DNA of 64,000 bases from Escherichia coli (lineage in GTDB: Bacteria > Pseudomonadota > Gammaproteobacteria > Enterobacterales > Enterobacteriaceae), in NCBI RefSeq assembly GCF_003334785.1, contig NZ_QOWV01000005.1. One strand, 5' to 3'. This document shows, piece by piece, positions 45,001-51,000 of this stretch (positions are counted from its first letter, which is position 1; every line of letters begins with the position of its first letter). Position numbers: made by a program.

Positions 45001-48000
45001 TGAGAATTTATTTTCTAAGTCCATTAGTTAACCTCTATGAAAAAATTGGTTTCTTGCATCCTGCTTAAGCAATAGAAATTATGGCTATTCATATTTATGT
45101 GTCATTAACGCTACAGGAAATTATATTTGACATATCTATGGTTGTGTTCACTAATTTATCTTAGGAATTCAGTGATGTAATCTGAAATAGCCTTATTCAA
45201 TTTTGATAAAGTAGATTGTTCTCTAACGCATTGAAAAATAATGATTTATAGTATGCTCTTAACTGTTTTAAGATGCTGATTTAAGAAAACATAAGAGGTG
45301 CTGGTTATAGTGGTTAACTGCACTATAACCAGCAAATTTAACCAAATGATTGTAATTCTTAGCCATTATCTTCTGAATTATCGTTTAAGAGTTCAATATA
45401 TGCCTGCGCTTTACTCTTAACACTATCATCCTCACAATTGTTAATAATGTGATAGAAACATTGCATTGCGTTATCGATATTTTTAGCCCCAATCTGACAT
45501 TGACCCATACGATAAATAACTGAATAGTCATCATACGGGAAGTAATTGTAACTTAGTTTGTAAAGGTCATATGCTTGTTGATATTTCTTTTTGGGCTGAC
45601 ATACTGATGCAAAATCTTTTAGATACTCATGATTTTCGAACGCATAAATGCACAAGAATTTATAATAAATTTCTGCGTCCGTTATATTACCCTTTTCATG
45701 GTAGTCGAATGCATATGCATATATTCTATCAAGGATATCAGGAGTTAAACCATGTAGTAATGCCAGATTTTCTCCTTTCGATAATGCGTGTTTTAGTTGA
45801 TTTGCCCATTCATCACTATTATTGAATATTTCAATTGTTTCTGTGCTCATAATATTCCTCTGTGATGTGTCTCGTGATGCCAAATTATTATTGATTGACT
45901 CATTGATATTTTTATATTTATCTTTTTTAAATTATGAGTTTTAAGCTTGCATTGCTTATGGTATATTTTTCATTATTGGTAAAAGTACTGTTCACTACAA
46001 ACTAATAACATCATTAGTTGTTTTACTAATATTCACCTTATTAGTTATCTTAATTACGACATTACATAAATGCCTTAATGTGTATGACCTGGATTCATAG
46101 TATCAATTGCCATTTTTTCAATGAAAATTAAAAAGGGGATTTTTGAGAAGGGTAGAATGTCGTTTGTTTTTTTCTTTATTATGTCTGGTGACGCGGGGGG
46201 ATAGAACGTCTGTGCATATAGTAGTGAATTTATTCAGGTCTACATTATTCTCTATTTTGGTCAGTTTTATGAGTTCATTTACAGCCATACTCATTAAATC
46301 ATCTGTTATCGAAAATTTATATATGCTCATAGCAGATAATATTGCTTGCTGAATTATCTCTTCAGAAATATCCGCTATCTTTATTGACAAATCATGTGTT
46401 AGATATTTTCCTCCAAGAGATTCTTGTTCAATATAATTTAAACCAGACCCCATTGTGATTTTAACTGGATTAACGGATTTCTCTTCATTTTTCTTATTTT
46501 TGTTCTCCTGATCAGGAACTAATGGTTGCAGTGGTAGGCTATTATTAATATTTCGTGGCTTCATTTTACATTTCTCTCATTTGATTAGAGCAAAATCCGA
46601 ATTCGCAGCTTCTGATAATGTCAAATATCACCTTATGGAGACGTTACGTAGAATGACTATATTTGTTATCGGCACATTAGGGGTATTAATTTTAGTATTG
46701 ATGGAAGGTGATTATTGAACAGTAACATCGAGTCACGGTAAAAATGTGAGGTATACAATGGACATTGAATTTTCGCAGATTCATGAAATGGTCTATATGC
46801 ATGATATTGTAAATTCGGACTCGAAAAAGAAACCAAGGATTCCGTTAAAAAAATTCCTTAATGCTGAGAATGTTCTCACGCAAACAACATCATGGACATT
46901 AAATTCAAGATATGTGAATGTTAATTCTGTCAATAAAGTCAACGTAAAGAGTAAAGTTAAAAACAGTTATATCTCACGATCTGTCAATGATGAGTTTAGT
47001 TTAACAGATGATGAAATCAATTCTTTTAAAGAAACGTTAGTCCTTTCCTCTATTGATTCACTGAGTAAACTGGTTCTTAATAATCCTCTTTCTGTATTGT
47101 TTACATCGACTGTACGAAGGAATAATAATCGAGCTAAGATGAATGTCGAGTTCGACTCATGGATTTGCACCAGATGTTGTTGATACATGATATTTTACAT
47201 TGCAAGGAGATGTCTAAAATGAAAGATGTTGATCAAATCTTTGATGCTTTAGACTGCCATATACTGCGAGAATATTTAATTTTATTGTTTTATGATTAAC
47301 GAGGTTCCATCTTTTTGTTATCTATTTTAGTTTACCTTGCACAATGCATTATTGCTCTGTTACCAATGCTCAAAATAAAAGCATGCTTACCTTGCTTTAG
47401 TATATTATAGCTTACACTTTTTTCTGGAAAGACATAAAAATCAGGAATAAGTTGTGCAAGTCTATCATCATCAACTTGATCCATAATCTCAAACTTATTA
47501 ACTTTCTTTGATGTTAAATGGGCTGTGTCATAGTTTTCAATCCATGTGTATTCAATATTTCGCCGTATTGATTTACTTTCTCTGTTACCTTGTTGCCAGG
47601 TTCCACTCAACGCAACAGTTCCTGTTTTATTTTTTTTGTTATACATAAAGTCGATGGTAAGATTTGCTCGTCCCTGGTCATTAAAAATTACCCAATTTGC
47701 AGTGCATGTTTCGTTATATATCATTTTTTCTGCAGTGTAAGAATAGACAGTGAAGAGAATAAACCCACTGATAAAAACTAAAATAAATAATAAGTTTTTT
47801 TTATAATCAATCACGATTAACCTCACGGTAAGACAGGGTTAAACAGTTTGCCACTTCATGTTGGTTATAGTTTTTATTGCATGCCATAACAATCATCCCC
47901 GGTGAGGATTTTGCAAGAGGGAAGTATAACCACGGATGTTTTTTACAGTTAATCCCCGAATCCAGTATCCGTGTTTTATATTTATCGAACTCTTTCAACC

Positions 48001-51000
48001 CATCAATTGTATCTTCTGTTACATTAAAATGGCAGCCATTAATTTCCGCAACAGTCTTGTAATCCTTGAAAAATGGCTTCGGTTGATTATTATTCCATAG
48101 CCAATATGCAGAATATGCGCCTATGACAAATGCGCTCAACATAATTAGATGACTTTTTATATGTTTGAGGATTTTGTTATTGAAATTCTTTGCGCCACCA
48201 ATGCTCTCTTTGTATCCCGCATTAACTTTTATGGCAGGTGGGGCATTGTGTGTATGTGCGTCTGTTGACGAGTTTATTACATGATTTTGTATGTTAATGT
48301 CATTATGGATCTTGAATCCTCTTCTCGGCACGGTTGCAATTAGCGAGTGGGTAGTATCACCAACAGCGCGAAATCCGCGTCTGATAATGGATATGTTCTG
48401 ATATAACGTGTTAGTAGGCACACGCATACCTTCTTCTTCCCAGACTCTGGTGAAAAAATCTTGTTGTGCAACCACATCAGGAAAAGCTTCAAGTAGAAGT
48501 GATAAACATCGACTGGCTGGCGTTGTCAGAACGACGTTAAGATCGGCGTTATGTACCGATATTAATTTTCGGTGCTCAGGCCAGAACTCGATATTATCGT
48601 TAATAATCCAGTACATACGTCAATAAACACTAAATCAATCGAAATGGAGATCACATAGTTTGCTAAGTATATTGGTATTTACGGCATAAATATATATTAA
48701 TTTTATATTTATCATGATGATTGAAATGAGGCTTTAATGTTGCAACGTAAAACTTTACGTAAATTAACATGGTTAACATTTATGCCACTATTGTTTGTAA
48801 ATTCATATTTCGTAATGCTTCTGAATTTTTCGTGTGATGGTTTTAAATACTATGGTGTTTACTCTTGAGGGGACGGCCTATTTATAAAATACGGACATTT
48901 CAATAAATGCCCGTATAAACAGAGTATGATTCTGGCTGGTCGTTGAGTATCAATGTTGGACCGAATGTGAACGAATAAATAATTCGTTTATTTTACCACC
49001 CATTCTCTTTTCGATTCGTTGCTTGTACGCGTAGATGCTACGGATATCCATATCCAGAACTTCAGCAATCTGATATGGATTATAACCAGAAACCATATAC
49101 CCCATTATGGTGAATTCCATCTGAGTTAATGTGTTACCTCTGGTAAATGATAAATAACGACCAATAAATAGTTGTCTGATCTTTTCATTGGCAACATCAA
49201 GACCATCATCATTATATATGACAGCAGATATTGCTGAGTTGTGTTTTCGCCAGTAATTAGCTAACGATTGCATATTGCGGTCGCTGACTAAAACAATCCC
49301 CATGTCAGTACTTGCAAGATAGTCAATCCAGTCTTTTTCAAGGAATAGACGTAAAAAACTTACTGAAAAATCGACAAAAATATATCCGCTTAATCTCGCA
49401 TTGTGGTTTTTTGTTAAGATACCTTCTACCACACCACGATTAAAATATGAACTTTCTTCGGGCCACATACAAAAACACGAGTTTGCGCAATACTGCAAAC
49501 GCGGTGACTCTTCTGGCATTATTTGGCAATGCATTGAGCAACTATTGCATGTAAGACTTTTATAACGACTACAAAGCCCCATGTTAAGAACCTCCCTATC
49601 CGTATATAATTGCATAATTTCATTGGTTATTGATGATGTCAATACACCATGATTTTGTAATTTTGCCGGGAAAAATTGCGATTAATCTGTATTTGCTATA
49701 ATTCTGAGTAAGGCATTTAAAAATGCATTTCTCGTTATCAAATATGATTATGTTTCACTGATTTAATCTTGCATGGTTGAGAGCGGTCCAGATAACTATC
49801 TCATGGTATAAGAATATCTATATCGCAAATTGTTTTTGAATGACCAGAAGATATCTTGCGAATCTAAGTTATGCATCTTAAATAGTCTTATTTAAGATGT
49901 TCAGATCTCTTTGTGTGTTTAACTAACTGATAATACTAGGATATGACGAGAGAAGTGATAGGGTGGAATAATAACAAATGAATATTATGAAAAATGGAAT
50001 GGTTCAAAATTGTAGCAATTTTGAACCATCCACAACTGATATTAGCTAAAGAACATTACCGATACGCACAGGATACCCACGATCAGCGTAATCAGATTTC
50101 CGATGGAACGCCAGGGTTTAAGCGCCGGGATGAGATACGTTGACAGCGTAGGCATGATGAAAAGTATCATGGCAATGAGCGGGCCGCTGATCGCGTAAAT
50201 CATCGAAATCGCGTTCGGGTTAATGCAACAAACAATGAAGGTAATCAGCGATACCAACATAATTGATAGTGCGCGGTTAAATGCACGACTTTTCTTTACA
50301 CCAACCTGCTGTAGTGTTGTTTTGACGACCTCTGTGGCACCTTCAATAACGCCAAAGTACGTACCCAGGAATGATTTCGACATCGCAACTACTGCGACAA
50401 TAATCCCGGAAATTGACAACCATGCTGGGGCGTTCGGCAGCATAGAAAGCGCCGATAAAATGGTGACCCCTTCTTCTTTAGCAGCTTCAATATACGAAGG
50501 TGGAATAGAAAGCAGGCAGCTAAAGACAAAGAACAGTACACTTATGCAGATGATGAGATAAGCGACTTTCATAATTTTTTTGCATTTATCCATAGCGTGT
50601 TCGCCATATTTTTCACGTCTGTCTATGGCAAACGTAGAAATAATGGGCGTATGGCTAAAGGCGAAAACCATCACGGGAATCGATATCCATATCTGGTGAA
50701 GGGTATTCTGATTGAACTCTACCTGGGTTGTTAATAGATCAGGTTGCCAACTACCGACAAGGTAAATGGAAAGAAATAAGAAATAGGCAATCAATGGGAA
50801 TACCAAAAATCCCATTACCCGAATAGTGGCATGACGTCCCATCAGAAAAATGAGATTCAGAATTAATACAACACCCAGACTCACCAACATACGGATGCGA
50901 AGATCAATAACCATATGCTTTGCCAGCTGTTCCGTAAGTGAGTTGGTAATTGCCACTGCATATATCAACACGACGACAAAAAAGGCGATGAAGTACAGCG

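What the first reader, a model, noticed from the sequence alone, without database searches (positions are those of the whole stretch)
47332..48616. Overlapping yqeI/yqeJ pair resembles ToxR/ToxS or MarT/FidL-type membrane regulator modules
yqeI encodes an N-terminal winged-helix DNA-binding domain followed by a membrane anchor. yqeJ starts 20 nt before the yqeI stop and encodes a single-pass membrane protein with a mainly periplasmic body. That is the layout of regulator plus periplasmic partner pairs that sense envelope or host signals.
Basis: inference. Interest (0 to 1): 0.4.

Follow-up and report, generated by a model that had tools for sequence, protein, structure and literature searches.

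The report
YqeI/YqeJ ToxR/ToxS-like membrane regulator pair

Summary
On the minus strand, yqeI (48616-47807, 269 aa) and yqeJ (47814-47332, 160 aa) lie in the low-GC ETT2 island of E. coli. YqeJ has an N-terminal transmembrane helix and a periplasmic 8-stranded barrel closed by a conserved Cys pair.

One correction is needed. The 20-nt overlap belongs to the longest ORF. The start supported by comparison and by a ribosome-binding site gives an 8-nt overlap (GTGATTGA).

My independent tests support the interpretation:
- The YqeI DNA-binding domain is closest to ToxR.
- MarT is 40% identical to YqeI, and FidL belongs to Pfam YqeJ_C.
- 44 of 49 full-length YqeI relatives have a YqeJ-family gene directly downstream.
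- A fused model of the two periplasmic domains is confident (pTM 0.76).
- Both genes are under purifying selection.

Kinch et al. (PNAS 2022) already named YqeI/YqeJ a VtrA/VtrC-ToxR/ToxS "co-component" cassette orthologous to MarT/FidL, and reported that the periplasmic domains form a complex. The ligand and the direct target genes remain unknown. Verdict: real, correctly interpreted, already known.

The parts
47807..48616 (-). yqeI: 269-aa bitopic transcription regulator. It has a ToxR-type winged helix (about 1-103), a variable linker (about 104-150), a TM helix (about 156-175) and a periplasmic beta-beta-alpha-beta-beta-beta domain (about 176-269) with 4 invariant Cys.
   Evidence: ORF. 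RefSeq annotation. Pfam Trans_reg_C E=4e-9. Profile against PDB sequences: ToxR E=3.8e-13. Family alignment with invariant C195/C224/C246/C258. Hydropathy and K/R bias. Secondary structure of the periplasmic part in the fused model.
47332..47814 (-). yqeJ: 160-aa bitopic partner. It has a short cytoplasmic tail (MIDYKKN), a TM helix (about 4-30) and a periplasmic 8-stranded lipocalin-like barrel with a conserved Cys37-Cys158 pair (160-aa numbering).
47807..47826 (-). Gene junction. The yqeI stop is TGA (47809-47807). The likely yqeJ start is GTG at 47814 (8-nt overlap GTGATTGA), with a GAGG SD at about 47824-47821 inside the last yqeI codons.
   Evidence: Sequence. A start codon at the 8-nt position in 27 of 44 related cassettes, with overlaps of 1-14 nt in most others. 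This suggests translational coupling, which is an inference.
48617..48949 (-). 333-nt AT-rich intergenic region between yqeH and yqeI, the presumed promoter region of a bicistronic yqeIJ unit. No promoter could be singled out.
   Evidence: Gene layout. The promoter scan was no better than shuffles (17 found against 16.9 expected). No ToxR-box pattern is present here.

Best explanation
yqeI-yqeJ is a two-gene 'co-component' transmembrane transcription regulator (coTTR) of the VtrA/VtrC-ToxR/ToxS superfamily. It belongs to the MarT/FidL (YqeJ_C) clade.

Shown by sequence or model:
- YqeI sits in the inner membrane with a ToxR-type winged helix in the cytoplasm and a small disulfide-containing domain in the periplasm.
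- YqeJ is anchored by an N-terminal helix and carries a ToxS/VtrC-like beta-barrel in the periplasm.
- The yqeJ start overlaps the yqeI stop by 8 nt, and its SD lies inside yqeI. The two products are therefore probably made by translational coupling, in matched amounts.

Inferred from the solved VtrA/VtrC and ToxR/ToxS complexes, the fused model, and the published co-expression result:
- The two periplasmic domains form an obligate heterodimer.
- The barrel provides a pocket for a hydrophobic ligand (bile salts in the Vibrio systems; unknown here).
- Ligand binding or partner-mediated stabilisation promotes oligomerisation or persistence of YqeI, which then binds promoters while tethered to the membrane.

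Outputs reported for an APEC yqeI deletion are flagellar, type 1 fimbrial, adhesion and serum-resistance genes. Direct targets are unknown. In K-12 the locus lies in an H-NS/StpA-silenced domain.
For: - Domain architecture.
- ToxR is the best sequence match to the DNA-binding domain among PDB chains.
- YqeJ model pLDDT 93.7, pTM 0.79.
- Foldseek top hits are ToxS 8u2f (E=1.7e-4, TM 0.70), ToxS 8alo_B and VtrC 5kew/5kev.
- MarT is 40% identical over 99% of YqeI, and fidL is a Pfam YqeJ_C gene.
- The same pair occurs in Citrobacter, Kosakonia, Enterobacter and E. albertii in unrelated neighbourhoods.
- 44 of 49 full-length relatives have an adjacent YqeJ-family ORF, while 7 relatives that end just after the TM helix have none.
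- The fused periplasmic model built on 33 paired rows has pTM 0.76 despite a disordered 30-aa linker, which requires both domains to be placed confidently relative to each other.
- dN/dS is 0.07-0.2 for both genes across Escherichia species.
- Conserved start/stop overlap.
- Literature: Kinch 2022 (PMC9214523) for cassette assignment, lipocalin fold and complex on co-expression; APEC knockout phenotypes (PMC7552227); coTTR lists; H-NS/StpA silencing of the yqeG-ygeI block (PMC12460168).
Against: - The YqeJ family profile has no sequence-level similarity to ToxS or VtrC. The link rests on fold and architecture only.
- The YqeI periplasmic fold was not matched to ToxR or VtrA by my fold searches, because the hits were dominated by the YqeJ half.
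- I could not inspect inter-domain contacts or PAE, so the interface geometry is unverified here.
- Five full-length relatives lack a detectable partner, one of them at a contig end, so the partner is not universally required.
- No ligand, binding site or direct target is known.
- The neighbouring ETT2 secretion genes in this window are partly decayed, and the region is silenced in K-12.
- The E. coli YqeI TM segment is only moderately hydrophobic.
Confidence: 0.88

Rival explanations
1. YqeJ is mainly a stability factor rather than a ligand sensor. Like ToxS for ToxR and TcpH for TcpP, it would shield the YqeI periplasmic domain from site-1 proteolysis or disulfide-dependent degradation. The signal would then be read out through regulated proteolysis of YqeI.
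For: - The YqeI periplasmic domain has four invariant Cys and YqeJ has a conserved Cys pair, which fits redox-sensitive folding.
- The overlap suggests coupled, matched-amount synthesis.
Against: - This is not exclusive of ligand sensing. ToxS and VtrC both bind bile salts in solved structures (PDB titles).
- No proteolysis data exist for YqeI.
- Nothing in my analysis distinguishes the two modes.
Confidence: 0.35
2. The pair is a silent, decaying remnant of the ETT2 island with no present function in this strain.
For: - Several ETT2 genes in this window are frameshifted or truncated: YscQ, EscU, OrgA, ygeK, the SLT gene and ygeF.
- The island has low GC.
- The yqeG-ygeI block is an H-NS/StpA-silenced domain in K-12.
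- The locus is absent from about 31% of complete E. coli genomes.
Against: - Both ORFs are intact. The protein clusters each hold about 4000 near-identical member sequences.
- dN/dS is 0.07-0.2 in both genes and in both periplasmic domains.
- The cassette persists in other genera without any T3SS nearby.
- A yqeI deletion has motility, adhesion and colonisation phenotypes in APEC (PMC7552227).
Confidence: 0.1
3. YqeI works alone as a one-component CadC-like membrane sensor, and YqeJ is an unrelated neighbouring membrane protein.
For: - NCBIfam's only sub-threshold hit for YqeI is CadC (E=3.4e-4).
- Five full-length relatives have no detectable partner, and seven short ones have none.
Against: - Adjacency holds in 44 of 49 full-length relatives across unrelated neighbourhoods.
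- Start/stop overlap is the rule.
- Loss of the periplasmic domain coincides with loss of the partner.
- The fused model is confident.
- A complex forms on co-expression according to the literature.
- The DNA-binding domain is much closer to ToxR than to CadC.
Confidence: 0.03

Closest known systems
[quoted passage not shown]
   Same: - The regulator is homologous over its full length: MarT is 40% identical over 99% of YqeI, with the same four periplasmic Cys.
- The partner is in the same Pfam family, YqeJ_C, with the same conserved Cys pair.
- The 8-nt start/stop overlap is the same once fidL is started at the conserved ATG.
- Kinch 2022 calls the pairs orthologues.
   Different: - The genomic neighbourhood, and probably the targets, differ. 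marT-fidL lies next to the misL autotransporter, which it activates; yqeIJ lies between yqeH and the ETT2 regulators and has no adjacent autotransporter.
- The periplasmic domains have diverged substantially: the E. coli and Salmonella fused periplasmic sequences, linker included, are 45% identical.
Vibrio ToxR/ToxS
   Same: - The architecture is the same in both proteins.
- The DNA-binding domain is the closest by sequence among solved structures (E=3.8e-13).
   Different: - There is no detectable sequence similarity between YqeJ and ToxS (10-13% identity in structural alignments; the profile search found nothing).
- According to Kinch 2022, the YqeI periplasmic domain lacks the C-terminal helix of ToxR; my model agrees, since it ends in a strand.
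- YqeJ has an N-strand to C-strand disulfide pair.
- The ligand is unknown.
Vibrio parahaemolyticus VtrA/VtrC (bile-salt receptor controlling T3SS2)
   Same: - Both are associated with a horizontally acquired type III secretion island.
- The gene order is regulator then partner, with overlapping ORFs.
   Different: - Similarity is at fold level only.
- VtrA has no periplasmic disulfide (Kinch 2022), whereas YqeI has four invariant Cys.
- Bile-salt binding has not been shown for YqeJ.
- The ETT2 apparatus in this window is degenerate.
CadC (one-component membrane pH/lysine sensor)
   Same: - It has an N-terminal wHTH, a single TM helix and a periplasmic sensor with functional disulfides.
- There is weak sequence similarity in the DNA-binding domain.
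   Different: - CadC has a much larger periplasmic domain and no ToxS-like partner gene.
- The YqeI score against the CadC model is 19.6 bits against a cut-off of 400.

Membership tests
Co-component transmembrane transcription regulators (VtrA/VtrC-ToxR/ToxS superfamily) | The regulator has an N-terminal OmpR/ToxR-type winged-helix DNA-binding domain. | tested here: met
   Pfam Trans_reg_C matches residues 28-102, E=4e-9. The family profile hits the ToxR DNA-binding domain at E=3.8e-13 over positions 1-108.
Co-component transmembrane transcription regulators (VtrA/VtrC-ToxR/ToxS superfamily) | The regulator has a single TM helix followed by a small C-terminal periplasmic domain (N-in, C-out). 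| tested here: met
   All 17 homologues have one hydrophobic segment 94-102 residues from the C terminus. K/R counts are 3.6 on the N side against 1.4 on the C side. The conserved tail has 4 invariant Cys. This is a prediction only; topology was not measured.
Co-component transmembrane transcription regulators (VtrA/VtrC-ToxR/ToxS superfamily) | The regulator's periplasmic domain has the ToxR/VtrA alpha/beta fold. | tested here: inconclusive
   The fused model gives beta-beta-alpha-beta-beta-beta with block-mean pLDDT of 63-93 in this part. This matches the published description. However, no ToxR or VtrA periplasmic chain appeared in my fold searches, because the YqeJ half dominated the hit lists.
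Co-component transmembrane transcription regulators (VtrA/VtrC-ToxR/ToxS superfamily) | An adjacent downstream gene encodes a bitopic protein with a periplasmic ToxS/VtrC-like 8-stranded lipocalin-like barrel. | tested here: met
   [not shown]
Co-component transmembrane transcription regulators (VtrA/VtrC-ToxR/ToxS superfamily) | The two periplasmic domains form a heterodimer. | tested here: inconclusive
   The fused two-domain model has pTM 0.76 with a disordered linker, and the pair shows strict synteny; both support a heterodimer. No contact map or PAE was available to me. Kinch 2022 (SI) reports a complex on co-expression.
Co-component transmembrane transcription regulators (VtrA/VtrC-ToxR/ToxS superfamily) | A hydrophobic ligand (for example a bile salt) bound by the barrel controls activity. 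| not testable with these tools
   No binding data exist. The literature also leaves this open (Discussion).
MarT/FidL clade (Pfam YqeJ_C, PF27292) | Sequence homology of both proteins to MarT and FidL, including the conserved Cys pair of the partner. | tested here: met
   MarT cluster P0135 is 40% identical over 99% of YqeI. The Salmonella downstream gene is labelled PF27292 YqeJ_C. My YqeJ HMM hits the S. enterica diarizonae partner at E=1.6e-49. C37 is invariant and C158 is at or above 90% in 96 sequences.
MarT/FidL clade (Pfam YqeJ_C, PF27292) | The regulator activates an adjacent adhesin or autotransporter gene (misL). | tested here: not met
   There is no autotransporter next to yqeIJ in the window; the neighbours are yqeH, yqeK, ygeG and ygeH. 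This feature belongs to the Salmonella locus, not to the protein family.
ToxS (sequence family) | Detectable sequence similarity to ToxS. | tested here: not met
   The YqeJ-family profile against all PDB sequences has a best E of 0.66, to unrelated proteins. The Pfam-A library available to profile_search gave no significant hit.

The most novel reading that the evidence does not exclude
The yqeIJ cassette is a self-contained sensor of a gut or host-derived hydrophobic signal. It has outlived its original T3SS client: it remains under purifying selection in strains whose ETT2 is decayed, and it now controls flagella and fimbriae elsewhere in the genome. The regulators that end just after the TM helix and have no partner would be a ligand-independent offshoot.
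Probability: 0.25. Interest if true: 0.45.

Novelty: already known. Interest (0 to 1): 0.15.

Why it matters
The family matters because ToxRS and VtrAC couple host bile signals to virulence. YqeIJ is the E. coli representative, it is present in about two thirds of complete genomes, and its ligand and direct regulon are still unknown. The architecture, the fold assignment, the MarT/FidL orthology and the physical association are already published, so this scan finding adds no new biology.

The small additions from this work are:
- Comparative evidence that the yqeJ start overlaps the yqeI stop by 8 nt, with an internal SD. The PNAS paper lists this pair as a non-overlapping exception.
- A quantified synteny rate (44 of 49).
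- The observation that relatives lacking the periplasmic domain also lack the partner.

Tried and rejected
- Pfam-A and NCBIfam scans of YqeJ found nothing. The family exists only in a newer Pfam release (PF27292), which I saw through precomputed labels.
- The word-indexed homologue search for YqeJ reached Escherichia only. The exhaustive profile search was needed to reach the wider family.
- The sequence profile of the YqeJ family against PDB sequences gave no ToxS or VtrC hit.
- The promoter/terminator scan around the operon was indistinguishable from shuffles.
- The ToxR-box pattern TNAAA-N5-TNAAA was not enriched (7 found against 6.65 expected) and does not occur upstream of yqeI.
- I hoped fold searches with the fused model would also return ToxR or VtrA periplasmic chains. 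They did not.
- The supplement of PMC9214523 that describes the co-expression experiment is not held.
- The first homologous-protein run failed because the queue was full.
- I considered and rejected the 20-nt-overlap start: it has no SD, and its frame is closed by a stop codon in Citrobacter and Kosakonia.
- I considered and rejected the idea that the window is K-12. It carries about 6.9 kb more ETT2 sequence than the K-12-like record and matches strains such as BA92.
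Full report
**What is in the sequence.** Window 47332-48616 holds two minus-strand ORFs: 47807-48616 (269 aa, ATG) and 47332-47826 (164 aa from the first GTG). The stretch is 100% identical to E. coli chromosomes in which RefSeq names the genes yqeI and yqeJ. A match is present in 3731 of 5426 complete E. coli genomes, always on the chromosome. The genes lie in a low-GC block (about 33-37% GC against about 52% in the flanks) spanning roughly 31-50 kb of the window. This block is the ETT2 type III secretion island, inserted next to a tRNA-Gly gene. The window is not K-12. It carries about 6.9 kb more ETT2 sequence than a K-12-like record and is identical to strains such as O2:H16 BA92. 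The secretion apparatus is nevertheless partly decayed: YscQ, EscU and OrgA are frameshifted, ygeK has an internal stop, and the SLT gene and ygeF are frameshifted.

**Checking the observation.**
- YqeI has a Pfam Trans_reg_C winged helix at residues 28-102 (E=4e-9).
- YqeI has one hydrophobic segment at about 156-175. In E. coli it is only moderately hydrophobic (KD 1.35). All 17 aligned homologues have a single such segment (mean KD 2.0) placed 94-102 residues before the C terminus. There are more K/R residues on the N-terminal side (3.6 against 1.4), which predicts N-in/C-out topology.
In fact a conserved ~95-aa C-terminal domain follows, with four invariant cysteines (C195, C224, C246, C258).
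- YqeJ has a short basic tail, a strong TM segment (KD 2.26) and a ~130-aa body.
- The stated 20-nt overlap is that of the longest ORF. RefSeq starts yqeJ at the second GTG (47814), which gives 160 aa and an 8-nt overlap, GTGATTGA.
- That second start has GAGG 6 nt upstream; the first GTG has no SD. At the homologous position E. albertii and Salmonella have ATG, while Citrobacter and Kosakonia have GTG with an in-frame stop just upstream.
- Across 44 related cassettes, 27 have a start codon at exactly the 8-nt overlap, and most of the rest overlap by 1, 4, 11 or 14 nt.

**What the proteins are.**
- A profile of the YqeI family, searched against all PDB sequences, hits the V. cholerae ToxR DNA-binding domain best (E=3.8e-13 over positions 1-108). 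CadC (2e-3) and PhoB/KdpE-type regulators (at or above 0.05) are far behind.
- YqeJ has no hit in the Pfam-A or NCBIfam libraries I could scan. Its homologues carry the precomputed label PF27292, named YqeJ_C.
- An exhaustive profile search found 128 cluster representatives, nearly all 150-165 aa. In an alignment of 96 of them, C37 is invariant and C158 is present in at least 90%.
- An AlphaFold2 model built on that alignment is confident (pLDDT 93.7, pTM 0.79). It shows helix 4-30 followed by eight strands.
- Foldseek against the PDB ranks the V. parahaemolyticus ToxS periplasmic domain first (8u2f; E=1.7e-4; TM 0.70), followed by V. cholerae ToxS (8alo_B) and VtrC (5kew, 5kev), and then generic lipocalins.
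- Sequence alone does not connect YqeJ to ToxS or VtrC.

**Is it a pair?**
- Salmonella MarT (cluster P0135) is 40% identical to YqeI over 99% of its length. In SPI-3 it is followed by a YqeJ_C gene (fidL) and then the misL autotransporter.
- The same regulator-partner pair occurs in four other settings: Citrobacter next to chaperone-usher fimbrial genes, Kosakonia next to a ShlB-type transporter, Enterobacter next to mutS, and E. albertii in ETT2. The unit that moves is therefore the two-gene cassette.
- One scan of 100,044 species genomes returned 57 loci, 54 of them from Enterobacterales. I analysed these with HMMs of both families, together with the earlier loci.
  - 44 full-length regulators have a YqeJ-family ORF immediately downstream on the same strand.
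  - 5 full-length regulators have none detectable. They are three Serratia loci (one at a contig end), Tenebrionibacter and Y. frederiksenii.
  - 7 regulators stop just after the TM helix. They have no periplasmic domain and no partner.
- I built 33 paired rows, each consisting of the YqeI periplasmic domain, a 30-aa Gly/Ser linker and the YqeJ periplasmic domain, and modelled the E. coli fusion.
  - The result was pLDDT 81 and pTM 0.76. The linker was below pLDDT 50, and the block means were 63-93 for the YqeI part and 86-96 for the YqeJ part.
  - A pTM this high over 254 residues cannot be reached unless both domains are placed confidently relative to each other. I take it as support for a defined complex.
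  - I could not inspect contacts or PAE.
  - The YqeI part folds as beta-beta-alpha-beta-beta-beta, as published for this clade.
- Both genes evolve under purifying selection across Escherichia species (dN/dS 0.07-0.2, including both periplasmic domains). dS is close to saturation.

**Mechanism.**
- Shown: the architecture, the fold, the synteny and the overlap.
- Inferred, by analogy with the solved VtrA/VtrC and ToxR/ToxS complexes:
  - The YqeI periplasmic domain binds the YqeJ barrel.
  - The barrel senses a hydrophobic ligand and/or protects YqeI from degradation.
  - The membrane-tethered YqeI then activates or represses promoters.
  - The 8-nt overlap, with the SD inside yqeI, suggests translational coupling and matched amounts of the two proteins.
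- Reported outputs: an APEC yqeI deletion lowers flagellar and type 1 fimbrial gene expression, motility, serum resistance, adhesion and colonisation (PMC7552227). Direct targets are not known.
- In K-12 the yqeG-ygeI block forms an H-NS/StpA-silenced chromatin domain, and ygeH rises about 150-fold in the hns stpA double mutant (PMC12460168). The cassette is therefore probably silent in laboratory culture.
- I found no usable promoter signal and no ToxR-box enrichment.

**Comparison with what is known.**
- Kinch, Cong, Jaishankar and Orth (PNAS 2022; PMC9214523) list YqeI/YqeJ (ECK2845/ECK2846 and ECs_3704/3705) in their Table 1 of co-component systems, with the comment 'YqeJ lipocalin'.
- They call YqeI/YqeJ orthologues of MarT/FidL.
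- Two later papers list YqeIJ among coTTRs (PMC13042144; PMC10269533).
- My independent tests reproduce these conclusions.
- The one discrepancy is minor. The PNAS paper counts YqeI/YqeJ among the pairs without overlapping ORFs, whereas the RefSeq start and the comparative evidence give a conserved 8-nt overlap.

**Verdict.** The finding is already known, so interest as a discovery is low. What remains open for this cassette is the ligand, the direct regulon and the conditions that relieve silencing. Its persistence under purifying selection beside a decayed secretion system is compatible with an independent sensor role, which is the most novel reading that the evidence does not exclude.

Noticed in passing
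window ~31000-50000: A low-GC (0.32-0.37) ETT2 island begins next to a tRNA-Gly gene (about 31187-31260). The T3SS apparatus genes are partly decayed: YscQ, EscU and OrgA are frameshifted, there is a SpaN fragment, ygeK has an internal stop, and the SLT gene and ygeF are frameshifted. The regulators ygeH, yqeH and yqeI, the partner gene yqeJ and the chaperone ygeG remain intact.
   Followed up: partly
window 48950-49582 (-), yqeH; L009, L010, L032, L033, L002: An EcpR_N/LuxR-type regulator gene (yqeH) lies just upstream of yqeI. A YqeH-like gene is also within a few kb of the cassette in other Escherichia species, in Citrobacter sedlakii and in Salmonella SPI-3 (beyond misL). This hints at a recurrent three-regulator neighbourhood among the closest relatives only.
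   Followed up: partly
L042, L045, L050, L052, L056, L057, L058: Seven regulators with a YqeI-like winged helix (Trabulsiella, Mixta, Izhakiella, Erwinia) end right after the TM helix. They have no periplasmic domain and no YqeJ-family neighbour, so the periplasmic domain and the partner are lost together.
   Followed up: partly
L039, L040, L053, L062: Four full-length regulators with the Cys-containing periplasmic domain have no detectable YqeJ-family gene downstream (Serratia x2, Tenebrionibacter, Yersinia frederiksenii). They may be true orphans, or they may have partners too diverged for the HMM.
   Followed up: no
L016/L029 (one Trabulsiella contig), L014, L015, L035: The cassette is duplicated locally in some genomes. 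Two cassettes lie about 15 kb apart in Trabulsiella odontotermitis. L014 and L015 have an extra YqeJ-family ORF about 5 kb upstream. Candidatus Pantoea haifensis has back-to-back divergent cassettes, one with a split regulator.
   Followed up: no
window 47219-47299 (+): RefSeq annotates a 26-aa hypothetical protein between yqeK and yqeJ, convergent with yqeJ, so the yqeIJ unit ends against converging genes. No terminator-like hairpin was found downstream of yqeJ.
   Followed up: no
window 47332-48616 vs L009, L010, L032: Synonymous divergence of yqeI and yqeJ between E. coli and other Escherichia species is very high (dS about 1.1-2.8, near saturation) while dN/dS stays at 0.1-0.2. This fits a fast-evolving or anciently diverged island locus.
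   Followed up: no
window 1-30000: The upstream half of the window is the purine/urate catabolism and selenium-dependent molybdoenzyme cluster (ygfT/ygfS, ghxQ, guaD, xanQ, xdhD, ygfM, ssnA, ygfK, mocA, yqeB/yqeC, arcC, hyuA, ygeW-Y, xdhABC). I inferred this by mapping from an annotated K-12-like record with a 6.9-kb offset.
   Followed up: no
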